DNA from: an uncultured Gammaproteobacteria bacterium
Lineage (GTDB): Bacteria; Pseudomonadota; Gammaproteobacteria; Francisellales; CACEW01
Assembly: GCA_964539235.1 (NCBI GenBank)
Contig: CAZIIK010000050.1
Location: 160-64,159, forward strand
Direction: 5' to 3'
Length of the DNA stretch: 64,000 nt
Position 1 is the first letter of the stretch. Every line of letters starts with the position of its first letter. Below are positions 6,055-59,825 of this stretch, piece by piece. The notes beneath the pieces are model-generated. The model saw nothing but the letters and a program-made list of their open reading frames with translations, made no database searches and had not been told where the DNA came from. A program made the position numbers and the translations under genes.

Positions 6055-6468
6055 TCATGACAAATGTTCTGCAGCGTAACGTTTAATCGCTTTCAGCATC
6101 TCATACAACCCATTACGACGCGTTGGACTTAAATGCGCCTCAAAACCAATTTCGCCGAGAAAATCTGGTGACAAAGCCGCAATGTCTTGAGCTGACTGAC
6201 CACTGTATACCGCAAATAAAACCGCCATCAGACCTGACACGATCGCGGAATCACTGACACCAGAGAAATGCAAACAACCATCGCGGAACGAACAATCCAT
6301 CCACACCTGAGATTGGCAACCACGAATCAGGTATTGCTCGATCTGCTTCTCAACTGGAAAACTCAAAGTTTTACCCATACTAATCAGCATTTGATAACGC
6401 TCAGTCCAATCATCAAAAAAGCCAAATCGCTCAATAATTTCTGCCTGGGCCGCCTGGATGGAAGTCAT
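6055..6468 (-). CDS. sufE: SufE/CsdE-family sulfur acceptor protein
   Basis: 137 aa with IRGCQSQVWMD around the conserved Cys and a SufE-like C-terminus (LSPTRRNGLYEMLKAIK). Confidence 0.8.
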   Translation of the reverse strand: MTSIQAAQAEIIERFGFFDDWTERYQMLISMGKTLSFPVEKQIEQYLIRGCQSQVWMDCSFRDGCLHFSGVSDSAIVSGLMAVLFAVYSGQSAQDIAALSPDFLGEIGFEAHLSPTRRNGLYEMLKAIKRYAAEHLS

Positions 6469-9990: not shown

Positions 9991-10154
9991 AGTTTTTTAT
10001 CCTAGTTTATATAGCGTGATAGGGCGCACTTCGCTAAAAGATACAAATGACTGAGTCTGTGGAAGTCGATGCCTATAAAAGGTCGCACCAAAACGGATTC
10101 AATCAGCAGTTCAAATACCTCGGCTCATTTACCCCATACGTTTCTTCATGCTTT

Positions 10155-25161: not shown

Positions 25162-26515
25162 TTAATCTGAGATCTGTAAGAGCCGCTGCAACTGCTCAAT
25201 CAAATAAAATGGAATCGACGACAGCTGATATTTGGCGACTTGCCCATCATGTAGTTTGACCGCAACCGGCACCTGACTCGGCAGATCAGCATTAACCCTG
25301 ACAGCATGAGGTAGTTGTTTTAGATGCATGAACAGATGCAATGATTTTAAACTGCCGGTTGCACCTGACTTCACCTCAATCGGCACGATTTGACCACCAG
25401 ATGCCCAAACATAATCTAATTCCGCATTAGCACTTTTATTTTCACGCGCCCAGTAATAGGTCTGTGGTGCTTGATACAGTGGTTGGCTGGCGCGCAATAA
25501 CTGACCGACAATTTGTTCAGAAATAGCACCTTGGTTAATCAGATTAATGTCACCGATTTGATTGACTTCATGTAATTGCAATCCGAGCAAAGCCGAGGTC
25601 ATGCCCACATCTAACAGCCCAACTTTAAATCGCTTAGCATTGGCTTCTGCCATTAATGGCACACCATTTGCCGCAGTTGCAACGGCTTTGTAACACACAC
25701 GTGCCTGGCACAGTAAACCTAAGGCTGCTTTCAGTTTGGTTGACTGTAAATCTCGTGCGACCTGGCTGTAAACAAACTTACCACCCAAAAGACGGGGCAC
25801 AGCCTGCCATACCGCGTCTAAATATTGCGTATCAATTCTCGGGGTGTATTTGACAAAGTCATCCCGATAAGCCATACGCAAATCACTCTGTATACGAGCA
25901 ACTTCTGCCAGCGCATCGGTATTGACCCAAGTCGCCACAGCTTCTGGCATACCACCCACAATCAGATACTCGCGGAATAAATCCAACAACTTATGGTGCA
26001 CGGGCAAAGCAACAGGGGTTGTGAAATCCATCTGTTGTATAAACGCTAACAAGACCGTTTCATTTTTGGCCAACAAAAATTCTTCAAAAGATAAGGGTTC
26101 GATATAGCAAAAAGATACGCGCCCGACCGGCATGCTGAACTGATGGTCACCTAAGGTAAAGTCCAACAAAGATCCTGCCGCGACGACTGCAAGCTCTGGC
26201 ATATCTTCATAAAACCATCGCAATTTTGCCAATACATCCGGAAATGCTTGCGACTCATCCAAAAATAATAAGGTCTGCTCAGGTTGCAAGGTTTGCTGCT
26301 GCGCTAAACCGATATCACGCAGAATGACTTGCACATCATTGGTGTGGAAAAACTGCTTGTGCGCTGGAAACTTCTCAAAGTTCAATTCAACTAATTGCTT
26401 ACCACTGGACTCCACCAAATGACGCACCAACCTGACGGGCACCGCGCATAATCATCGGCTTGCGAGCTGAATTCTGCAGCCACTGCTGCAAATATTGAGA
26501 GGCATAACGTTGCAT
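25162..26515 (-). pseudogene. DUF4143-type AAA ATPase/PD-(D/E)xK protein, frameshifted in the P-loop
   Basis: An N-terminal fragment from ATG 26515 (MQRYASQYLQQWLQNSARKPMIMRGARQVGAS..) stops at 26399. The main ORF (25162-26442) is in another frame and lacks a Walker A. Walker B is LLFLDESQ and the tail is ELDYV...IPIEVKSG. Confidence 0.75.
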
Positions 26516-26564: not shown

Positions 26565-26619
26565 CAAAAAGACCCTTGTGTTTTTGTAACAAACCATCAA
26601 AAACACAAGGGTCTTTTTT
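26565..26619 (-). terminator. Strong rho-independent terminator after argH
   Basis: A ~19-bp perfect stem, AAAAGACCCTTGTGTTTTT / AAAAACACAAGGGTCTTTT, with a 13-nt loop and flanking A/T runs. It starts 5 nt after the argH stop. Confidence 0.8.
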
Positions 26620-26623
26620 ATTT

Positions 26624-28000
26624 TTATGTCTGATTTAGTCGCTCCTGTGCGTAGGTAAGTTGCTGTAAAACGGCTTGTTTTGCCGTGCCACCCCGCACGC
26701 AGCGGGCTTCGACAGCATGCTCTGGCACTAAAGCCGTATAAACATCTGCAGCGAATAATTCACTGTGTGTCTGCAGCGTATGTAATGGCAGATCCACCAG
26801 TAACTGTTGCTGCTGAATACACTGCATCACCAACTGACCTGTCACTTCGTGAGCTTGACGAAAAGGCATGCCTTTTTTCACCAAGTAATCTGCCAATTCA
26901 GTGGCATTGGAAAAATCTTGCGTCACTGCTTGGCGCATATTCTCTACGCGCACTTTCAGCGTTGCTAACATGGGCGCAAATAAATCTAATGAACCATGCA
27001 AAGTCGTTAAGGTATCGAATATCCCTTCTTTATCTTCTTGCATGTCTTTGTTGTAGGCCAAAGGCAATCCCTTGAGCACAGTTAAAATACCGATTAACGC
27101 ACCGTAAACACGACCAGTTTTACCCCGCACCAATTCTGGCACATCTGGGTTTTTCTTCTGCGGCATCATGCTGCTGCCAGTACAATATGCGTCATCTAAT
27201 TCAATGAAACTAAATTCTTTACTGCACCACAGCACCAACTCTTCACTCAATCGTGACAAATGGGTCATGATTAAAGCCGCATGTGAAAGGAGCTCCACCA
27301 CGAAATCTCGATCACTGACCGCATCCAGACTGTTTTCATACACCGCTGAGAAATCCAAGGCTTCTGCCACACTAACGCGATCAAATGCGAAACCTGCACC
27401 CGCTAACGCACCGGCGCCCAGTGGGCAAACATTAATGCGTTTTAAACTATCGGTCAGGCGATCGATATCACGCTGAAACATCCAAAAATAAGCCAATAGA
27501 TGATGTGCCAGCCGCACGGGTTGAGCACGTTGTAAATGCGTATAGCCAGGCAATATGGTGTCGACATGCTCACTGGCTTGCGTGACCAAAGCCTGCTGCA
27601 CAGCTTTAAGTTTTTGCACCATACTTTCAACATGCAGGCGTAAATACAGATGCATATCGGTGGCCACTTGGTCATTACGACTGCGACCCGTATGCAATTT
27701 ACCAGCCAATGCACCAATTTCTTCATGCAGCAAACGTTCAATATTCATGTGAATATCTTCATCAGCCACTTGAAACGTGACTTCATCTGCTGCAATGCGT
27801 TGCTGAATGGCATGCAGACCGGCAACAATGGTGTCGCATTCTTCATCGGTCAGCACATCGCATTGCAACAACAACTGCGCATGCGCCACACTACCTTGGA
27901 TGTCGACCATGGCTAACTCATGATCAAAATGAATCGACGCGGTGAATTCATCGACTAACTGGTCAGTTGGTTTGGTAAAACGGCCACCCCAAAGTTTCAT
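26624..28000 (-). CDS. argH: Argininosuccinate lyase
   Basis: 458 aa: [18 protein letters not shown] and the signature [12 protein letters not shown]. Confidence 0.95.
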
Positions 28001-28070
28001 GTTTTGTTATCCTTTTTTCATGTAGGCCTTTATCTAAATTTTGCTAAAAACCAAACCCTTTAATAGGCTT

Positions 28071-28192
28071 GACTTCGACAAAAGGTTCCTGTCCTTCGAC
28101 CAAAGGCTCCTGAGCTTGTCGAAGGACAGTCAGCGAAAATTAGGTCCATGAGCCTGTCGAAGGGACCATCTTTCGGAGGCTCAGGGAACGGC
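28071..28192. repeat. Cluster of REP-like hairpin units (core CCTTCGAC / GTCGAAGG)
   Basis: Perfect 12-bp hairpin CTGTCCTTCGAC (28089-28100) / GTCGAAGGACAG (28118-28129). It is flanked by the two halves of a second unit (28073-28086 and 28142-28164), which match the copy at 57921-57955. Confidence 0.6.
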
Positions 28193-29385
28193 TACTGATT
28201 CACCATTTTATAAACCTGTAACGGCAACCCCCACAACTTAATAAAACCTTCTGCCGCAGCATGATCAAACTGATCATCGGGTTTATAGGTCGCTAATTCA
28301 AATTGGTATAACGATTGCTCAGACTTACGGCCAGTCACCACGGCTTGTCCTTTATGTAGTTTGACGCGCACCACACCAGAAACAGTTTTCTGCGTCTCGG
28401 CAATAAACTGTTTCACCACATCTGTGAGGGGGGAATACCACATCGCTTCATAAATGAGTTCCGCTAACTTCTGCTCCATCACCGGCTTAAAATGCATCAT
28501 TTCCCGCGGCATGGTTAAGGCTTCCAAAGCTTTATGCGCCTTGATCAACGTCATCGCGGCAGGTGCTTCGTAGACCTCACGCGACTTGATGCCAACCAAA
28601 CGGTTTTCAATATGATCGATACGACCGACACCATGTTGACCAGCCACCTGGTTTAGGGTTTCAATCAGCGTCACAAATGGCATGGCTTCACCATTTAATG
28701 CCACTGGCTTACCGTGTTGAAAGGTAATTTCAATCTCTTCTGCCGTATCCGGTGTATCAGCAATAGCACTCGTCCATTCATAAGCCGCTTCGGGTGGTGC
28801 TGCCCAAGGATCCTCTAGCACACCACATTCGCAACTTCTGCCCCACAGGTTTTGGTCGATGCTAAACGGGTTATCGAGATTGATCGGCAAGGGAATAACG
28901 TGTTCGTTGGCATAAGCAATCGCATCTTCACGTGCCATTGGCGCTTCACGTACAGGTGCTACAATTTTCAGATCAGGATTCAACGCATGAATCGATACAT
29001 CAAACCGTACTTGGTCATTGCCTTTACCGGTACAACCATGCGCGACAGCCACCGCACCAGTTTGCTGAGCGATATCGACCAGCACCTTCGAAATCAAAGG
29101 CCGTGATAAAGCTGAAACTAACGGATATACCCCTTCATATAAGGCATTGCCCTGCAAAGCTGGTAGTAGATATTCTTCTGCAAAAACTTTCTTCACATCG
29201 ACGATATGACACTCAACTGCGCCAACGTCTAAGGCCTTTTGCTTGATAAAATCGAGATCTTTACCTTCGCCAACATCCATCGCGGCGGCCACCACGTCGT
29301 AACCATATTTATCTTGCAACCATTTAATGGCGATGGAGGTATCTAAACCACCGGAATATGCCAATACAATTTTATCTTTTGCCAT
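28192..29385 (-). CDS. argG: Argininosuccinate synthase
   Basis: A start at 29385 gives [17 protein letters not shown]. Also [14 protein letters not shown]. The track start at 29412 is rejected. Confidence 0.95.
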
Positions 29386-29399
29386 GTTTTTTCTCCCTT

Positions 29400-30260
29400 T
29401 TATTTGGTACACAGCGTGCCAACACCGGCTTCTGTGAAAATCTCTTCAATTAATACATGAGGTCGTTTGGCACCCAAAATATGGATATTGTTCACGCCAC
29501 GACGCAGCGCTTTGAGAATGGTATTCACTTTGGTCAGCATGCCACCGACCACAATTTCTTCGTCAATCAACAACTGTAATTTAGCAGCATTACAAACCGA
29601 CAGCGGTTCATCTGCCTGGTAGATACCGGCCTGATCCGTCAAATAAATTAATTTCTCCACCCCGAGCTCAGCTGCTAAGCAACAGGCAGCCCAATCAGCA
29701 TTCACATTGACTGCTTGACCATTTTTCATCACTCCAATGGGTGACACAACCGGAATAAACGCAGCCTGATCATCGGCTTGCTGCATCTGCATGAAATGAC
29801 GCAATAAATCTAAGTTGACCTGTGAAATTTCACCCACTAGACCCAGTTCTGCGGACACCAAATCACATTGCAACATTTGTTGGTCAACACCGGATAATCC
29901 AATCGCGGGAACTGCCAGAGCATTTAAACGTTTCACCAACATTTTATTGACCTGACCACTCAACACCATCTCGATAACATCCATCATATCGGGTGTCGTA
30001 ACCCGCTGACCTTGGTGAAATTGCCATGACAAATTATAGGTCGACAAAGCCGATTCAATAGCTTTGCTCCCCCCATGCACAATGACAATGGCAATCCCTG
30101 CCGCACGGAGTAATTTAAGGTCTTGGCAAAGACTTTCGACTAGGGCGGGCTCATCCAAGATTGAACCCCCCATTTTGATCAAAATACTTTTACCTTGAAA
30201 TTGCTGCACATATTGCAGTGCTTGTAATAGTAAGTCGGTCTGTTGTACCTGCATGTTCAA
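29400..30260 (-). CDS. argB: Acetylglutamate kinase
   Basis: 286 aa with [15 protein letters not shown] and other amino-acid-kinase fold motifs. Confidence 0.9.
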
Positions 30261-35020: not shown

Positions 35021-36193
35021 TTACAACAATTCTCCCTCCCACAGCCGTGATAAAAATGTTTGCCAGGGTAAACACAAGACGCCTTCTGTCTGACGCGCAA
35101 ATGCATCACACGAGACCAAGAAATATTGCTGACAAATATTTTCCTGCTGCAACATGCGCAAAGATTTTAGATGCTTGGACTGAATCTGTGTCGTCGACTT
35201 TACCTCTATCGCTATTTGATCGCCAATGATGAAATCCACTTCATAACCATGTTTAGTGTGCCAATAACTTAAAGGCAGTTTCTGACGCGTATAACTTAAA
35301 TAGGCGCTGAGCTCCATAGCAATAAAATGCTCAAAAGCATGACCAAACAGCTCGGTCTTATCCGGAATATGATAGTTCTGGATCAGCGCATTACGCACAC
35401 CTAAGTCAAAATAATAGAACTTTGCAGTTGCGACCGGTTGACGCTGCACACTCTTGCGCCAACTTGGCAACATGAACCCGAGGAAAGTATCCGCCAATAC
35501 TTGGTAATACTCTCGGATAGTGGCTGCTGTCACGCCAATTTCATTTGAGATCGCCGTAAAATTCAGCATATGGCCACTGCTTAAAGCCGATAACTGCAGA
35601 AACTTTGAAAATACAGGCAAGTTGCGCACCAATGCTTCAGCCTGAATTTCATCACGCAAATAGGTATGCGTATAGGCATATAGCTCATCTTCTGGGTCAG
35701 TACTGTTATAAATGGCCGGTAACCCGCCATATTGCAGGTAACGCTGTAAATTAAAGTCTGGTATTTCTTGACTGGTTAATGGAAATAATTCTGCTTGCCA
35801 AGCACGACCGGCCAATAAATTAACACCCGCCAGCTTGAGTTTCCTGGAACTGCTACCGGTTAATAAAAATGTTACGCCACGCTGTTCAATTTGACGGTGC
35901 ACTTCGTTTAATAAAATCGGCAGACGTTGGATTTCATCGATCACGATTAGCTTTGCCTGTGGATAAGCCGCCAACATCTCAGCAAACGCGCCTGGATTGG
36001 CTGATAAAGTTAAATAGAGATCATTGCGCAGCAAATCAAATACCGGTGTGTCCGTTGGTAATTGTTGATTGGCTAAAAAAGATTTGCCTGTTGCTCGAGG
36101 GCCAAATAGGAAAAAAGATTTCTTGGCTAATAACGCTTTAATATCCAATAATCGATGAATAACCATGATATTTCCGGAAATTCTATAGTTCAA
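35021..36193 (-). CDS. DUF4143-type AAA ATPase with a PD-(D/E)xK-like C-terminus
   Basis: Walker A FGPRATGKS, Walker B LIVIDEIQ, tail YEVDFIIGDQIAIEVKS. An alternative start is at 36166. Confidence 0.8.
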   Translation of the reverse strand: MNYRISGNIMVIHRLLDIKALLAKKSFFLFGPRATGKSFLANQQLPTDTPVFDLLRNDLYLTLSANPGAFAEMLAAYPQAKLIVIDEIQRLPILLNEVHRQIEQRGVTFLLTGSSSRKLKLAGVNLLAGRAWQAELFPLTSQEIPDFNLQRYLQYGGLPAIYNSTDPEDELYAYTHTYLRDEIQAEALVRNLPVFSKFLQLSALSSGHMLNFTAISNEIGVTAATIREYYQVLADTFLGFMLPSWRKSVQRQPVATAKFYYFDLGVRNALIQNYHIPDKTELFGHAFEHFIAMELSAYLSYTRQKLPLSYWHTKHGYEVDFIIGDQIAIEVKSTTQIQSKHLKSLRMLQQENICQQYFLVSCDAFARQTEGVLCLPWQTFLSRLWEGELL

Positions 36194-48057: not shown

Positions 48058-49179
48058 TTAGTGGGTTAAAGCCGCCTTGATCAAAGGGTCTAACACCCTG
48101 TATCTAGCCTGTTGATCTTTGAACACATAATCCTTTTCAAGTAAAAAGTTCATCGCGCGGTGGATGCTGGTAATGGGCATACTGGTTTCTTGTGCATACT
48201 CATGACTAAATGGGTTTTCCACATAATCTGCACTGGCTAAATGCAGCAGTAATCGTCGTTGATTTAGCTTCAACAGCATCGCTTCCTGTTCAACTCTGGC
48301 TTTATTCTCTTGGACATAATCCATCCATTCTTGCCGAATAGCTTCCGCCGTAGCTGGCTTAGGCAGTCTCAAAATCATGGAACAAAGTTTGTTAATGTAA
48401 TACGGATGGCGTTCTGTACACGCAAAAATAATGTCATATGCATCTTCTTTGAGCATGTCACCCCACCGATCTAGGCTGGCCTGCTTAATATGCTCGCTAT
48501 AATGTTTTGCAGAAATTCGATTTAATTGGATTTCATCGCACGCGTTAAAAAAAGACCTACTGTCATCGTGAAACATGCGCTCTATCAAGTGTCGGTTACT
48601 CCCTGCAAAAACATAGCGCACAGATTTTGATTTTTGCATGGCTTCTCTTATAGCCGACCCAATACTTTTATTCGGTGTAACTTCCGCCAGCGTTTGGAAT
48701 TCATCTAAGAACAGAATGCAGCCTGATATACCTGAGTGCTCAGTCACATAGTGATCGAGTTTTTCTAGGGCGGTCAAAATAAGGTCAACTGCACGTTTAG
48801 GACGCTGAGTAATTTCCAAGCTCAAATCTTTGCCATAAAGCGAGATATTAAGCTGCAGTGCACCAAAGAAATTACCCGCTGCTTTCAAAAGCTTTGTCGG
48901 TGTTTTCTCTGTTTGGCTGATGATTTTCCCAATACCATGCAAAATATATTGCGCAATTTCTTGTTCATTGAGTGCTTTATATAAATCAACATGTGCATAA
49001 GGCAGTTCAAGCTTTGAAAAAGCCTGTAATGCCAAACTTGTTTTGCCATAGCGTCTAGGCGATATCAGCAAAGATGGCGTGCCAGTTTCAAGATTATAAA
49101 TGAGGCGCTCGGTTTCAACGCTTCTATTGCAAAAAGCTTCCCGGGTCGCTACCATTGTTGGAAAATAATTTTTCGTCAT
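48058..49179 (-). CDS. ATPase_2 (archaeal-ATPase)-like P-loop NTPase with a C-terminal winged helix
   Basis: FCNRSVETERL, Walker A SPRRYGKTS, Walker B ILFLDEFQ, and a C-terminal wHTH-like tail. It lies 12 nt upstream of the ATP-grasp gene, with AAGGA as the RBS. Confidence 0.7.
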   Translation of the reverse strand: MTKNYFPTMVATREAFCNRSVETERLIYNLETGTPSLLISPRRYGKTSLALQAFSKLELPYAHVDLYKALNEQEIAQYILHGIGKIISQTEKTPTKLLKAAGNFFGALQLNISLYGKDLSLEITQRPKRAVDLILTALEKLDHYVTEHSGISGCILFLDEFQTLAEVTPNKSIGSAIREAMQKSKSVRYVFAGSNRHLIERMFHDDSRSFFNACDEIQLNRISAKHYSEHIKQASLDRWGDMLKEDAYDIIFACTERHPYYINKLCSMILRLPKPATAEAIRQEWMDYVQENKARVEQEAMLLKLNQRRLLLHLASADYVENPFSHEYAQETSMPITSIHRAMNFLLEKDYVFKDQQARYRVLDPLIKAALTH

Positions 49180-56592: not shown

Positions 56593-57813
56593 TCAACCAC
56601 CGGGGCTTGTGTCTTCTGTGAGTCGCTCTTCACCTGAAACTGTAACGGTAATTTCTTCAAGCTCACGGCACGCCTCTTTGGACTCCGTATGGTGATACCC
56701 CGCCGCACTACAGGTACCGGCAAGCGAAGCTAATGACCAAGCAAGATACCGGGCATCCATGCCGAACATCTCTTGCGCCAACAAAGTACGTAACATAATA
56801 AAGACTGAAGCAGCTGTTCCCACAGCATGCATCAACGGTCCCTTCCACTTGATGCCTTCACGCAGAAAAGCAGAAGCGGTTTTTGGCACAAAAGGCTCGG
56901 TTTTTGGGTTAGTCAATCTAACCGCAGCACGCATGGCATCATCAGATGCTTTACCTTCGAATAACCAGTTTTGCACCGCGGTTGGCGTGATACAAGCCAC
57001 GGCAAAGACCAGAGCGCCCCCGACTAACCCAACAATCCCTAAAGTTTCACCACTCACCTGAGCTATTTCCGGTGCGGGCAGCATTAATACGACATCAATG
57101 ACATGTTCAGCCACATGCCATGCACTACCACCACGAGCTATCCAGGTGCGAAAAGCATTATTCTGCAGGCACGTTTCCGAACAGATTAAATGCATGGCGT
57201 GATAACGATCAGCTGGCGCCTTAGTCCACTTATGAAGACCTTCACCAACAGCTGAAACATCTGTGGTGAAATCAAATGGCAAACGTAGAAATAGGGCAAT
57301 GGCTAAAGTAATCACTACACCACGCCAACCTAGCCAGGGCGTTAGATTGCCATCAAAGTCTGAATCTTGTTGATATTCATAACACCAGGCGACCAGGCTC
57401 TCAATTTCAAAGTACACCTCTAATAACGCTTTCACAATCGAAAAACTTATATAAAGCCCCATCGGTACGCCTTGTTTGTCTTGGCAAAACTTTTGCACCC
57501 GAGAGGGTGGAGGTTTATCAGATTCATCAGATTCACTGTCAGATTCATCACCATCCTCAACCCAGGCTTCTCGCACTTGAAAAGCTGCTTTATTCAGAGA
57601 CTCAATGCCGCCCATGAACGCACCAACCGTCAAAGCCAGCGGCCCCGGCTTCTTGGTCAATCCTGCAATTGTCGCCACAAAATTTCCCGTCACATTAGCA
57701 CCTTCTGCCAGGACATATAGGCCTTGTTTAGTTCGACGCCCACACTGGCTTTTTTGCGGTCTTCGACAACAACAAGCTTGTTTGATTCTTTTCCACCATT
57801 TCATAGACATCAT
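56593..57813 (-). CDS. Hypothetical multi-pass membrane protein
   Basis: 406 aa with a basic, Cys-rich N-terminus (KQACCCRRPQKSQCGRR), an acidic tract (EDGDESDSESDESD), several hydrophobic segments and a Glu-rich C-terminus. I recognise no family. Confidence 0.5.
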   Translation of the reverse strand: MMSMKWWKRIKQACCCRRPQKSQCGRRTKQGLYVLAEGANVTGNFVATIAGLTKKPGPLALTVGAFMGGIESLNKAAFQVREAWVEDGDESDSESDESDKPPPSRVQKFCQDKQGVPMGLYISFSIVKALLEVYFEIESLVAWCYEYQQDSDFDGNLTPWLGWRGVVITLAIALFLRLPFDFTTDVSAVGEGLHKWTKAPADRYHAMHLICSETCLQNNAFRTWIARGGSAWHVAEHVIDVVLMLPAPEIAQVSGETLGIVGLVGGALVFAVACITPTAVQNWLFEGKASDDAMRAAVRLTNPKTEPFVPKTASAFLREGIKWKGPLMHAVGTAASVFIMLRTLLAQEMFGMDARYLAWSLASLAGTCSAAGYHHTESKEACRELEEITVTVSGEERLTEDTSPGG

Positions 57814-57912
57814 CCCTGTGTTTATGTATTGCGCGGCAGTATATACAGAACTTTGCTATCTTCAAATGCGAATAATTATCATTTGCATTTTTCGGGCTGA
57901 TCGTTTGATTTG

Positions 57913-57955
57913 AGGGACCTCCCTTAGACAGGCTCAGGGACCTTTTGTCGAAGGG
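57913..57955. repeat. REP-like hairpin unit (same family as 28071-28192)
   Basis: CCCTTAGACA (57921-57930) pairs with TGTCGAAGGG (57946-57955) with one mismatch. Its reverse complement matches 28142-28164 at 21 of 23 positions and 28073-28086 at 14 of 14. Confidence 0.55.
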
Positions 57956-58063
57956 ATGATAAACCCATTAAACGTCCGAAAATTCGTGAGATAGCGAACA
58001 GACGCCATGAACACTTTCACGTATACTGTAAACCTTTCTTACCGTCAGAGCGCTACTCATACC

Positions 58064-58594
58064 ATGAATGTTCGCCAGTTTGCCGAAGCCATCCCCAATG
58101 TCAGTCAAGGCGTGTTTATCGATCTCAGTGCCGTGGTCACAGGCCGTGTCAGCTTAGGTCCAGACGCTTCCGTCTGGCCTTGTGTATCGATCCGCGGTGA
58201 TTTAATGCCGATCACCATTGGTGCGCGCAGCAATATCCAGGACGGTAGCGTGTTGCATACCACGCACATGAGTGATTACTGCCCAGAAGGCCATGCATTA
58301 ACCATTGGTGAAGACGTAACGGTTGGCCACAATGTGACATTGCATGGCTGTACCATTCACGATCAAGCCTTGATTGGTATGAATGCGGTAGTGTTGGATG
58401 GTGCCGTCGTAGAAAGCCACGTGCTGGTTGCCGCGGGCAGTGTGGTTGGACCCGGAAAAGTCTTAGAAAGCGGTTATCTCTGGTTAGGTAATCCGATTCG
58501 CAAAGCACGCCCACTCACAGACAAAGAAATACAATTCTTTCGTTACAGTGCTGAGCATTACGTTAAGCTAAAAGACAAACATGCGCAGAGGTAG
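58064..58594 (+). CDS. Gamma-carbonic-anhydrase-like hexapeptide-repeat protein (YrdA/PaaY/CaiE family)
   Basis: I prefer the start at 58064. It has left-handed beta-helix repeats and His ligand motifs (LHTTH, VTVGHNVTLHGC). Confidence 0.8.
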   Translation: MNVRQFAEAIPNVSQGVFIDLSAVVTGRVSLGPDASVWPCVSIRGDLMPITIGARSNIQDGSVLHTTHMSDYCPEGHALTIGEDVTVGHNVTLHGCTIHDQALIGMNAVVLDGAVVESHVLVAAGSVVGPGKVLESGYLWLGNPIRKARPLTDKEIQFFRYSAEHYVKLKDKHAQR

Positions 58595-58598
58595 TGTT

Positions 58599-59753
58599 TT
58601 AGCTGCGTGGCTTTAGCAGAAAATCATGAATATTGAGCACATCAATATTAGGTTTGTACGCGTCACTTTTTCCACAATACACTAAGAACCCTTGATCATT
58701 TTCTTCCAAATAAGATTCCACATGTCTTAACATTCTGGGATGAAACGTCGCATTATGCTTTACCTCAATTAATTCACGGAACTGTTTCCGGTCAATAATA
58801 ATGTCGATCTCTTCTCCACCATGTGTTCGATAATAATAAACTTCAGCGTTTGACTGTTGATGCCGCTCGCGTTTGACAATTTCGGACATAACATAATTTT
58901 CAAACAAAGCACCACTCATAGGGCCATGCGTATAATGTTCGTACGATTCAATGCCAACCAAATACGAAACTAACCCGGTATCATAGAAGTAAATTTTGGG
59001 CGCCTTCACAAGGCGTTTACCGTAATTGTTAAAATAAGGTGGAACCAAAAACAAAATGTACGAGGCCTCCAGTACAGATACCCAACGCGATACCGTCGAA
59101 ACAGCCACACCCAACGCGCGAGCCAATACTGATAGATTAAGCTGTTGAGATACACTAGCCGCCAACAGATGGATTAGACGTTGAAAATCGCGCAGATCGC
59201 CAATTTTGTGCAACGTCCTAATATCTTTTTCCAAATAAGTTTCCAAGTAGGCGCCATACCACAATCCTCTATTGCGATAGTTTTGCAACACCAGCTCAGG
59301 GTACGAACCTTGCCAAACCGCACTATCTCTCTCTGTCTCGGGCAATTCGGCATATTCCAACGGCAATAGGCATAGATTAACGACTCTACCAGCCAATGAC
59401 TCGGAGATATTTTTCAATAGATTAAACCGATGCGATCCACTGACCACAAGCTTGCCATAGCGCTGCCTATCTTGGTCAACAGCCAACTTAATATATTCAA
59501 ATAGTTCCGGCACCAGTTGCGCTTCATCAAACACCACACGATCAGCATATCTGGCCATAAACGCCACAGGATCATGGTAGAAGCGGCTACGAATATCGGG
59601 TTGATCTAAACGAACCACCTCGTATTGATTCGCCAGTAAGTGGGCAATAATTGTTGACTTACCAGATTGATGTGGCCCCGTTACGGCAACAACCGGGAAC
59701 ATCTCTAATGCCGACAAAAATGTTGGTTCTAATGCACGTTGATAATATGTCAT
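58599..59753 (-). CDS. DUF4143-type AAA ATPase with a PD-(D/E)xK-like C-terminus
   Basis: Start ATG at 59753 (MTYYQRALEP). Walker A TGPHQSGKST, Walker B VVFDEAQ, tail EEIDIIID...LIEVKH. An inverted repeat CTTGAAAT...ATTTCAAG lies just upstream. Confidence 0.8.
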   Translation of the reverse strand: MTYYQRALEPTFLSALEMFPVVAVTGPHQSGKSTIIAHLLANQYEVVRLDQPDIRSRFYHDPVAFMARYADRVVFDEAQLVPELFEYIKLAVDQDRQRYGKLVVSGSHRFNLLKNISESLAGRVVNLCLLPLEYAELPETERDSAVWQGSYPELVLQNYRNRGLWYGAYLETYLEKDIRTLHKIGDLRDFQRLIHLLAASVSQQLNLSVLARALGVAVSTVSRWVSVLEASYILFLVPPYFNNYGKRLVKAPKIYFYDTGLVSYLVGIESYEHYTHGPMSGALFENYVMSEIVKRERHQQSNAEVYYYRTHGGEEIDIIIDRKQFRELIEVKHNATFHPRMLRHVESYLEENDQGFLVYCGKSDAYKPNIDVLNIHDFLLKPRS

Positions 59754-59825
59754 AGCCACACCTTTTACTTGAAATCTTATCATGGCATCGAAATATTTCA
59801 AGTGAAAATACTGCATAACGTCAGA

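What the first reader, a model, noticed from the sequence alone, without database searches (positions are those of the whole stretch)
28071..28192. REP-like hairpin family with one unit apparently inserted into another
The argG-argH spacer is filled with copies of a hairpin unit: arms CCTTCGAC(A)/(T)GTCGAAGG and loop ~AAAGGTCCCTGAGCC. The single copy at 57921-57955 (reverse complement CCCTTCGACAAAAGGTCCCTGAGCCTGTCTAAGGG) defines the unit. At this locus the left half (CTTCGACAAAAGGT, 28073-28086) and the right half (AGGTCCATGAGCCTGTCGAAGGG, 28142-28164) of such a unit are separated by about 55 nt. That spacer contains a complete variant hairpin (28089-28129, perfect 12-bp stem). The tetranucleotide AGGT occurs at both junctions. 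This looks like insertion of one element into the loop of another with a short target duplication. A further partial inverted loop copy (GGCTCAGGGAAC, 28178-28189) follows. Such a pattern would be direct evidence that these small palindromes are, or were, mobile.
Basis: seen in the sequence. Interest (0 to 1): 0.55.

Follow-up and report, generated by a model that had tools for sequence, protein, structure and literature searches.

The report
Widespread small hairpin repeat, clustered between argG-argH
The argG-argH spacer holds a cluster of small REP-like hairpin repeats whose 19-base core also occurs in hundreds of unrelated bacteria and phages, but the proposed "one unit inserted into another, with an AGGT duplication" is not the best reading of this locus.

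Summary

The basic unit is not the 35-nt hairpin. It is a ~23-nt unit: a 4-nt tag (AGGT/AGGC), a short stem, the loop TGAGCYTGTCGAA, and the return stem. About 9 hits are expected by chance in the genome collection. The stem covaries strongly. A covariance model built only from foreign copies finds the three intact window units.

AGGT begins every forward unit here, so its presence at "both junctions" is not a target duplication. It pairs with an inverted degenerate unit, which is the commonest arrangement in the family. The "left half" overlaps the right by 9 nt, and 15 nt of non-repeat DNA would have to be co-inserted.

Clear nested arrays do exist in four other genomes. They sit at YTG^TCGAA inside the loop and show no duplication. 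So "these palindromes are or were mobile and can nest" is plausible for the family but is not shown at this locus.

No transposase was found, and no genome-wide count was possible.

The parts
28071..28091 (+). K1, a truncated copy of the 35-nt composite. It has the left arm CTTCGAC, the junction AAAAGGT, and the first 5 nt (TCCTG) of a forward unit.
   Evidence: 18/19 identity to the 57.9-kb copy. Direct tandem repeat with 28094-28114 at 81% identity and a 21-nt period (D3).
28089..28129 (+). K2, a complete composite hairpin with a perfect 12-bp stem. It contains one forward unit: tag AGGC, stem TCC/GGA, loop TGAGCTTGTCGAA at 28111-28123.
   Evidence: I1. Covariance-model hit 28103-28131, E = 5.6e-07. 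RNA fold of the minus strand, -23.1 kcal/mol.
28130..28141 (.). Non-repeat spacer TCAGCGAAAATT (15 nt if the preceding CAG of the stem is counted). It holds the only SNP between strains, at 28131.
28142..28167 (+). u2, a complete basic unit: tag AGGT, stem GGTCC(A)/GGGACC, loop TGAGCCTGTCGAA at 28149-28161.
   Evidence: Covariance-model hit 28141-28169, E = 3.4e-05. Exact loop match.
28165..28191 (-). u3, a degenerate inverted unit (CCGTT-CCC-TGAGCCT-CCGAA-AGA) carrying the widespread CCGTTC tag. It pairs with u2 to form hairpin 2 and starts directly after the argG stop codon (28192-28194).
   Evidence: I4. Folds (-17.7 kcal/mol). 22/28 identity to the 57.9-kb unit. The covariance-model hit is only marginal, E = 9.6.
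57921..57955 (-). K57, a single complete 35-nt composite in the divergent intergenic region between 56593-57813 (-) and 58007-58594 (+). The window strain has GTCTAAGGG. Other strains have the canonical GTCGAAGGG.
   Evidence: Covariance-model hit 57916-57944, E = 0.002.
57908..57920 (-). AGGTCCCTCAA (CGGTCCCTCAA in other strains). This is the first ~8 nt (tag plus stem) of a further unit, abutting K57 head-to-tail and truncated.
   Evidence: Complete head-to-tail arrays CGGTCCCTGAGCTTGTCGAAGGG x3 occur in L280.
28192..29412 (-). argG, argininosuccinate synthase. The likely true start is the ATG at codon 10.
26624..28000 (-). argH, argininosuccinate lyase.

Best explanation
**What it is.** The spacer holds a cluster of REP-like, non-coding hairpin repeats. 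They have no transposase of their own.

**The basic unit.** It is about 23 nt long: a 4-nt 5' tag (AGGT/AGGC here), a 3-6 bp stem, the 13-nt loop TGAGCYTGTCGAA, and the return stem. This unit is a local variant of a family found in many bacterial phyla and in phage contigs. In that family the loop is near-invariant and the stem covaries.

**The 35-nt composite.** In this organism the unit mostly travels as a 35-nt composite.

**Layout of the locus.**
- a truncated composite
- a complete composite
- 15 nt of non-repeat sequence
- a forward unit paired with an inverted degenerate unit

**How it most likely arose (inferred).** Copies accumulated by repeated insertion or local duplication of single-stranded hairpin units, mobilised in trans by an enzyme not identified here. 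The mechanism would resemble REP/RAYT or IS200/IS605 transposition, which recognises a tag plus a hairpin and leaves no target duplication. The left fragment is either a 21-nt slippage duplication or a truncated copy.

**Likely effect (inferred).** On the arg mRNA (minus strand) the cluster forms two stable hairpins without a U-tract, starting 5 nt after the argG stop codon. The likely side effect is protection of the mRNA 3' end or uncoupling of argG from argH expression, not termination.
For: **Shown: family membership**
- Coordinates and repeats are confirmed.
About 9 hits are expected by chance in the 596-Gb genome collection.
- The hosts span Bacteroidota, Cyanobacteria, Actinomycetota, Chloroflexota, Acidobacteriota, CPR and all proteobacterial classes. 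They include cultured isolates.
- Stem covariation: among 77 unselected loop instances the flanking triplets are complementary in at least 10 different forms. Formally, the covariation score is 0.503, against 0.16 in shuffles (0 of 500 as high) and at most 0.18 with partners slid.
- Model R1, built from foreign copies only, finds exactly the three window units, at E = 5.6e-07, 3.4e-05 and 0.002.

**Shown: family architecture**
- The 5' tag is asymmetric and the 3' flank is not conserved.
- Neighbour pairs: forward-then-reverse 53, direct 32, reverse-then-forward 20, with a minimal spacing of 22 nt. u2/u3 have exactly that spacing.

**Shown: no obvious alternative function**
- No U-tract terminator was found.
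- The hairpin energies are -23.1 and -17.7 kcal/mol.

**Signs of mobility in the family**
- Balanced nested arrays (3:3 and 2:2) in L333, and further nested arrays in L124, L176 and L186.
- A unit interrupting a TCACTCG heptamer array in L110.
- Patchy distribution: only 1 of 80 unselected mnmG loci carries it. That genome, Moraxella lacunata, has 6 copies in 8 kb.
- The unit is absent from sister-species contigs.
Against: - The genome-wide copy number in this organism is unknown. The genome is in none of the searchable DNA collections, and only two loci lie in the 64 kb.
- There is no presence/absence polymorphism among same-species contigs. Nothing therefore shows recent movement here.
- No Y1/HUH or other transposase was seen in the window (Pfam lists).
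- No protein family recurs next to the unit in 240 foreign loci. The mobilising enzyme is pure inference.
- A 13-nt loop that stays the same across phyla is unusual for selfish REPs, which normally co-evolve with a lineage-specific enzyme. A conserved host function cannot be excluded.
- The origin of the left arm of the 35-nt composite is unexplained.
Confidence: 0.6

Rival explanations
1. A 35-nt unit (28073-28086 plus 28142-28164) was split when a second unit (28089-28129 plus adjoining bases) inserted into its loop, duplicating AGGT.
For: - Joining the two fragments gives a 35-mer that is 32/35 identical to the canonical 57.9-kb copy.
- At the diagnostic positions both fragments share the 57.9-kb copy's variants (A after GAC, T after AGG, GAGCC, GGG), whereas the inner copy differs.
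- Nesting does occur in this family elsewhere.
Against: - AGGT is the tag of every forward unit, so it carries no information as a duplication.
- The right fragment is a complete unit in a canonical inverted pair.
- The fragments overlap by an imperfect 9 nt.
- 15 nt of non-repeat DNA lies on one side of the 'insert' only.
- The junction is not the YTG^TCGAA site used in the clear nested arrays, and those arrays show no duplication.
- The shared variants are simply the family consensus.
Confidence: 0.15
2. The hairpin is a conserved functional nucleic-acid motif, not selfish DNA. Its invariant loop would be a binding site on RNA or single-stranded DNA for a widely conserved protein. The arg copies would then regulate the operon.
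For: - The loop is invariant and the stem covaries across phyla.
- Tandem sheared G-A pairs inside the loop are possible (T-A, G.A, A.G, G-C).
- G.T wobbles outnumber A.C mismatches 15 to 4 in the three firm stem pairs, which hints that one strand is the one that folds.
Against: - There is no orientation bias relative to neighbouring ORFs. Copies lie in convergent, divergent and co-directional gaps and inside ORFs (a crude gene call).
- No gene association was found.
- Presence among genomes is patchy.
- Tandem and nested arrays and truncated copies are typical of repeats, not of regulators.
- No Rfam family matches.
- The two intact arg units are antisense to the mRNA.
Confidence: 0.15
3. The cluster arose purely by local slippage or tandem duplication of a single ancestral hairpin, with no transposition at all.
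For: - A 21-nt direct tandem repeat at 81% identity (D3).
- A second direct repeat, 28104-28125 versus 28142-28163, at 82% identity (D2).
Against: - A near-identical composite lies 30 kb away at 57921-57955.
- One unit is inverted (u3) and carries a different tag.
- The same core occurs in hundreds of unrelated genomes.
Confidence: 0.08

Closest known systems
REP / BIME / REPIN elements with RAYT transposases (E. coli, Pseudomonas; PMC3116915)
   Same: - Short extragenic palindromes with an unpaired conserved tag at one end.
- Frequent inverted pairs with the tags outside.
- Clusters in gaps between genes of an operon, forming mRNA hairpins without U-tracts.
- Non-autonomous.
   Different: - There is no GTAG tag.
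- No RAYT gene was seen.
- The stem is only 3-6 bp and the loop is a long 13 nt.
- Here the loop is conserved across phyla and the stem varies. Classical REPs are lineage-specific as a whole.
CGTC-tagged REP superfamily (Di Nocera, De Gregorio, Rocco 2013, PMC3733652)
   Same: As described in the paper's text:
- a tag CGTC that changes to TGTC or CCTC
- head-to-head dimers predominant
- some copies inside genes
- several phyla
- no associated transposase

In my sample, 48% of units carry an xxTC tag (GTTC 105, TGTC 31, GCTC 28, CCTC 20). If T-A, G.A, A.G and G-C inside the loop are counted as stem, the format becomes an 8-position stem with a 5-nt loop.
   Different: - The stated features 'A-T in the first two stem positions' and 'CCA tail' are not general here.
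- The window copies carry AGGT or CCGTTC tags.
- The paper's consensus figures are not held, and its text and supplements contain none of the motif strings.
- Identity with one of the CGTC families is therefore unverified.
Small dispersed repeats (SDR) of Nostoc (Elhai et al. 2008, Genome Res 18:1484; cited in PMC3116915)
   Same: From my memory of that paper, which is not held:
- 21-27 nt repeats
- hairpin-forming
- found nested within one another and inside heptamer tandem repeats
- no known enzyme

The L110 and L333 arrays look like this.
   Different: SDRs were described as cyanobacterial. Their sequences could not be compared here.
MITEs (for example Correia/NEMIS, ERIC)
   Same: - The 35-nt composite has 9-bp terminal inverted repeats.
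- In Moraxella lacunata the inverted pair sits inside a ~135-nt element with GGTATTGTTAA inverted termini.
   Different: - No flanking target duplication at 57921-57955 or 28089-28129.
- The size is far below that of MITEs.
- There is no parent insertion sequence.

Membership tests
REP/REPIN-RAYT | Short imperfect palindrome, extragenic, in many copies per genome | tested here: inconclusive
   The repeats are palindromic and extragenic. Only 2 loci with 4-5 units lie in 64 kb. The rest of the genome is not available.
REP/REPIN-RAYT | Conserved GTAG tetranucleotide at one end of the hairpin | tested here: not met
   The tags are AGGT/AGGC or CCGTTC. The single GTAG before u3 is the argG stop-codon context. 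The family-wide tag profile is CCGYTCR.
REP/REPIN-RAYT | Cognate Y1 (HUH) transposase gene, usually flanked by the repeats | tested here: not met
   There is no Y1_Tnp or OrfB domain among the window's genes (Pfam lists). No protein family recurs next to the unit in 240 foreign loci. Genome-wide absence cannot be tested.
REP/REPIN-RAYT | Inverted doublets that fold into a larger hairpin | tested here: met
   u2/u3 at 28142-28191 (I4). Family-wide, forward-then-reverse pairs are the commonest arrangement, 53 of 105 neighbour pairs.
CGTC-tagged REPs (PMC3733652) | Unpaired CGTC/TGTC/CCTC tag at one end | tested here: inconclusive
   Family-wide, xxTC tags occur in 193 of 406 units, but CGTC itself in only 3. 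The window copies have AGGT/AGGC or CCGTTC.
CGTC-tagged REPs (PMC3733652) | 8-9 bp stem starting with A-T pairs, 4-5 nt loop, 3-nt CCA tail | tested here: not met
   The Watson-Crick stem is 3-4 bp with a 13-nt loop. No CCA tail is present. The 8 + 5 format is reached only by counting non-canonical pairs inside the loop.
CGTC-tagged REPs (PMC3733652) | Head-to-head dimers predominant; no linked transposase; several phyla | tested here: met
MITE | Terminal inverted repeats plus a flanking target-site duplication | tested here: not met
   The inverted termini are present. There is no direct repeat flanking 57921-57955 or 28089-28129. The proposed AGGT is the unit's own tag.
Intrinsic terminator | G+C-rich hairpin followed by a U-tract on the transcribed strand | tested here: not met
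   No terminator-like site was found in 28001-28191 on either strand. No T-run follows either hairpin on the minus strand.
Small dispersed repeats (Elhai 2008) | 21-27 nt units, nested in each other and in heptamer arrays | not testable with these tools
   The paper is not held. Analogous arrays were seen in L333, L124, L176, L186 and L110.

The most novel reading that the evidence does not exclude
The unit belongs to a pan-bacterial, phage-borne family of ~23-30-nt mobile hairpins. Its near-invariant 13-nt loop would be both the recognition element and a preferred insertion target (YTG^TCGAA), producing balanced L-L-L-R-R-R nested arrays. That would make it a self-targeting single-strand mini-transposon, moved by a conserved and so far unidentified host or phage enzyme, and not described as such in the searchable literature or in Rfam.
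Probability: 0.25. Interest if true: 0.7.

Novelty: new variant of a known kind. Interest (0 to 1): 0.42.

Why it matters
At this locus the result is modest. It is a REP-like cluster between two genes of an operon, probably shaping arg mRNA stability.

The wider point is that what looked like a lineage-specific palindrome is one face of a hairpin whose 19-nt core is identical in hundreds of unrelated bacteria and phage contigs. That hairpin has a covarying stem, self-nesting arrays and no linked transposase.

How such tiny elements spread, and why their loop stays constant across phyla, is an open question about the smallest mobile DNAs. Moraxella lacunata NCTC10359, a cultured strain with dense copies, would make the question experimentally testable.

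Tried and rejected
- **Scans with the composite-specific pattern** CTTCGACNAAAGGNNCCTGAGC. The genome collection gave 3 hits and the JGI metagenomes gave 2. The two metagenome hits, read directly, are chance matches in high-GC coding DNA. The three genome hits lie in unrelated lineages and match the ~4 expected by chance. The source genome is not in these collections.
- **Orthologous spacers.** Four same-species contigs are identical apart from one SNP. The sister species (ArgH 81% identical) has an 809-nt spacer with a DUF559 gene and an unrelated hairpin repeat. No empty site could be obtained.
- **The 57.9-kb site in two sister species.** The unit is absent, but the region is too diverged for a precise empty site.
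- **Rfam.** Nothing in the spacer or in 18 foreign loci.
- **Literature searches** for the DNA strings and the peptides they would encode. Nothing relevant. The Elhai 2008 paper is not held.
- **GIY-YIG idea.** I recalled that such repeats precede small GIY-YIG genes. No recurrent neighbour protein was found in genome loci. In viral loci only homologous phage head-module genes recur.
- **Orientation relative to ORFs.** No bias.
- **Composite-like arrangement elsewhere** (left arm plus unit). Rare: 2-3 clear cases among 7 pattern hits, out of 406 units.
- **A weak extra match at 10052-10064.** Rejected as chance, because it has no stem.
- **ARG-box or terminator readings.** Rejected on sequence.

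Full report
**1. The observation**

- The 191-nt gap between argG (28192-29412, -) and argH (26624-28000, -; both confirmed) carries repeats from 28071 to 28191.
- These are the fragment CTTCGACAAAAGGT(TCCTG), a hairpin with a perfect 12-bp stem (28089-28129, I1), AGGTCCATGAGCCTGTCGAAGGG (28142-28164), and an inverted partial copy (28165-28191).
- One complete 35-nt copy lies at 57921-57955 (-) (1 mismatch, none expected by chance).
- Alignments between the two loci give E = 7e-07 to 3e-04.
- The spacer folds better than shuffles, with z = -4.2 as DNA and z = -3.0 as RNA.

Three details were missed:
- The left fragment matches 5 nt beyond AGGT.
- The right fragment pairs with the inverted copy as a second hairpin (I4).
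- 28073-28093 and 28094-28114 form a 21-nt tandem repeat at 81% identity (D3).

**2. The source organism and the limits of the search**

- The composite-specific pattern gave only chance-level hits in 596 Gb of species-representative genomes and in the JGI metagenomes.
- The best ArgG and MnmG matches in the genome collection are 73% and 72% identical. The organism is therefore a deep, uncultured gammaproteobacterium that is absent from the DNA collections.
- Exact-protein look-ups recovered same-species metagenome contigs. All carry the identical cluster, with one SNP in the 15-nt non-repeat stretch.
- At the 57.9-kb locus, some strains have the canonical GTCGAAGGG where the window has GTCTAAGGG. 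This is followed by CGGTCCCT, the start of a further, truncated unit.
- The sister species (ArgH 81% identical) has an 809-nt argG-argH spacer with a DUF559 gene and five copies of an unrelated hairpin repeat.
- Two sister contigs lack any unit upstream of the gamma-carbonic-anhydrase gene, but the DNA there is too diverged to define an empty site.

**3. The key finding: the core is not lineage-specific**

About 9 hits are expected by chance.
- It hit the limit again in IMG/VR.
- The hosts include Bacteroidota, Cyanobacteria, Actinomycetota, Chloroflexota, Acidobacteriota, Nitrospirota, CPR lineages and all proteobacterial classes. Cultured isolates are among them.
- In the 240 fetched loci (1.9 Mb) the 13-mer TGAGCYTGTCGAA occurs 406 times.

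*Stem covariation.*
- In the genome loci, 77 instances lack the searched CCC/GGG flanks. Their flanking triplets are nevertheless complementary: GGC/GCC 21, TGG/CCA 10, TGC/GCA 8, TCC/GGA 4 and others.
- On an alignment of 116 distinct copies, the three pairs next to the loop are paired in about 90% of sequences. They show 5-6 pair types each.
- The covariation score is 0.503. Shuffles give 0.16 (0 of 500 as high) and slid partners give at most 0.18.

*Architecture.*
- The unit is asymmetric. It has a conserved 5' tag (consensus CCGYTCR; GTTC 105, TGTC 31, GCTC 28, CCTC 20; an NGGT subfamily of about 30). The 3' flank is not conserved.
- Neighbouring units are most often forward-then-reverse with the tags outside (53), then direct (32), then reverse-then-forward (20). 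212 units are solitary.

*Test on the window.* A covariance model built only from these foreign copies finds exactly three significant hits in the window: 28103-28131 (E = 5.6e-07), 28141-28169 (E = 3.4e-05) and 57916-57944 (-) (E = 0.002). The degenerate inverted copy scores only E = 9.6.

**4. Re-reading the locus**

- Every forward unit in the window starts with AGGT or AGGC (28083, 28104, 28142, and 57.9 kb). This belongs to the NGGT tag subfamily.
- With the inverted unit 28165-28191 it forms a forward-then-reverse pair whose loops are 22 nt apart. That is the minimum spacing seen in the family.
- The inverted unit carries the widespread CCGTTC tag and starts directly after the argG stop codon.
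- The 35-nt "unit" is a composite: an inverted copy of the unit's last 9-10 nt, then MAAAGG, then the unit.
- Its derived junction is shared by the two copies at 28 kb and by the one at 57.9 kb. The composite itself was therefore copied.
- Similar composites are rare elsewhere: 2-3 clear cases among 7 pattern hits.

**5. The nested-insertion claim**

Arguments against it at this locus:
- AGGT is the tag, so it is not evidence of duplication.
- The fragments overlap by an imperfect 9 nt.
- 15 nt of non-repeat DNA would have to be co-inserted on one side only.
- A 21-nt tandem duplication explains the left fragment equally well.

The general idea finds support elsewhere:
- L333 has perfectly balanced arrays of three left halves followed by three right halves, and also two plus two.
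- L124, L176 and L186 show the same pattern, with partly matched stems in nested order.
- In all of these the inner unit sits between YTG and TCGAA of the outer loop, with a 4-5 nt tag and no duplication.
- L110 has a unit interrupting a TCACTCG heptamer array.
- L280, L271 and L097 have head-to-tail arrays with a 21-24 nt period.
- Only 4 strict nested cases occur among the 406 units, so nesting is real but uncommon.

**6. Mechanism**

What was found:
- No protein family recurs beside the unit in genome loci. In viral loci only homologous phage head genes recur.
- No transposase lies in the window.
- Orientation relative to ORFs is unbiased.
- Distribution is patchy. Of 80 unselected mnmG loci, only Moraxella lacunata carries the unit. 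It has three inverted pairs in 8 kb, each inside a ~135-nt element with inverted termini.

What I infer:
- This is a non-autonomous hairpin element moved in trans. The mechanism would resemble REP/RAYT or IS200/IS605 single-strand transposition, with tag plus hairpin recognition and no duplication.
- This step is inferred, not shown.
- On the arg mRNA the cluster gives hairpins of -17.7 and -23.1 kcal/mol without a U-tract. Established knowledge of REPs suggests 3'-end protection or an effect on translation termination, not transcription termination.

**7. Comparison with known elements**

- It works like a REP/BIME cluster, but it fails the GTAG and RAYT criteria.
- The closest described class is the CGTC-tagged REP superfamily (PMC3733652). 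That class shares related tags, head-to-head dimers, presence in several phyla and the lack of a transposase.
- The stated stem, loop and tail features are not met as written. The paper's consensus figures are not held, and none of the motif strings occurs in its text or supplements.
- From memory, the nested and heptamer-embedded arrays resemble Elhai's small dispersed repeats. That paper is not held.
- Rfam has no matching family. No paper in the library contains the strings.

**8. Verdict**

This is a real dispersed palindrome family that is plausibly mobile, but the AGGT-flanked nested insertion is not the best reading.
- The locus itself is ordinary.
- The cross-phylum conservation of the loop and the self-nesting arrays deserve follow-up.

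Noticed in passing
L209:1127-1935 (sister species, argG-argH spacer): The orthologous spacer is 809 nt. It holds a 134-aa DUF559/Vsr-like endonuclease gene flanked by five copies of a different ~50-nt hairpin repeat (CTCACCCGAAAAAACTATTGTTTTTTCGACCTCTCCCAGAGGGAGAGGTG). The argG-argH gap seems to be a hotspot for palindromic repeats in this lineage.
   Followed up: partly
L404:2250-2380, 2720-2850, 6160-6300 (Moraxella lacunata NCTC10359): Three copies of a ~135-nt MITE-like element with inverted termini GGTATTGTTAA. Its centre is a forward-reverse pair of the same hairpin (GAC-TGAGCTTGTCGAA-GTC ... TGG-TTCGACAAGCTCA-CCA) bracketed by CCGTTCG/CGAACGG.
   Followed up: partly
L125, L171, L157, L102, L103 (foreign loci): Sister hairpin motifs with the same layout but different loops: GTCATYCTGAGCGNAGCGAAGRATC and GTCCCTCGACTTYRCTCGGGAC. 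This suggests a superfamily of the form stem - GAGC - 3-4 nt - (T/G)CGA - stem. The first contains the GCGNAGC mini-hairpin.
   Followed up: no
window 26566-26618: A perfect 21-bp inverted repeat (AAAAAGACCCTTGTGTTTTTG / CAAAAACACAAGGGTCTTTTT, 11-nt loop) lies 6 nt downstream of the argH stop codon, with A/T runs on both sides. It is probably the bidirectional terminator of the arg operon. The terminator scan missed it because of its loop-length limit.
   Followed up: partly
window 57862-57888: An AT-rich palindromic box (AAATGCGAATAATTATCATTTGCAT) in the divergent promoter region is conserved in both sister species, while the DNA around it is not. It looks like a metal-regulator (Fur/Zur-type) operator.
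   Followed up: no
window 25162-26442, 35021-36193, 48058-49179, 58599-59816: At least four paralogous AAA_14/DUF4143 ATPase genes lie in 64 kb, one directly downstream of argH. That density is unusual. In one strain the 35-kb copy is called as two separate genes, AAA_14 and DUF4143 (L084).
   Followed up: no
L211-L214 ends, about 6.9 kb beyond 58594 (window end): All same-species contigs break at the same place, next to a gene fragment with an Rpn-type HTH domain. This suggests a multi-copy element at the end of the source contig.
   Followed up: no
L246, L255, L271, L276, L283, L327 (IMG/VR): In HK97-like phage or prophage head modules (portal, prohead protease, major capsid), the hairpin sits in the short gaps between structural genes, sometimes as 21-nt tandem copies.
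   Followed up: partly
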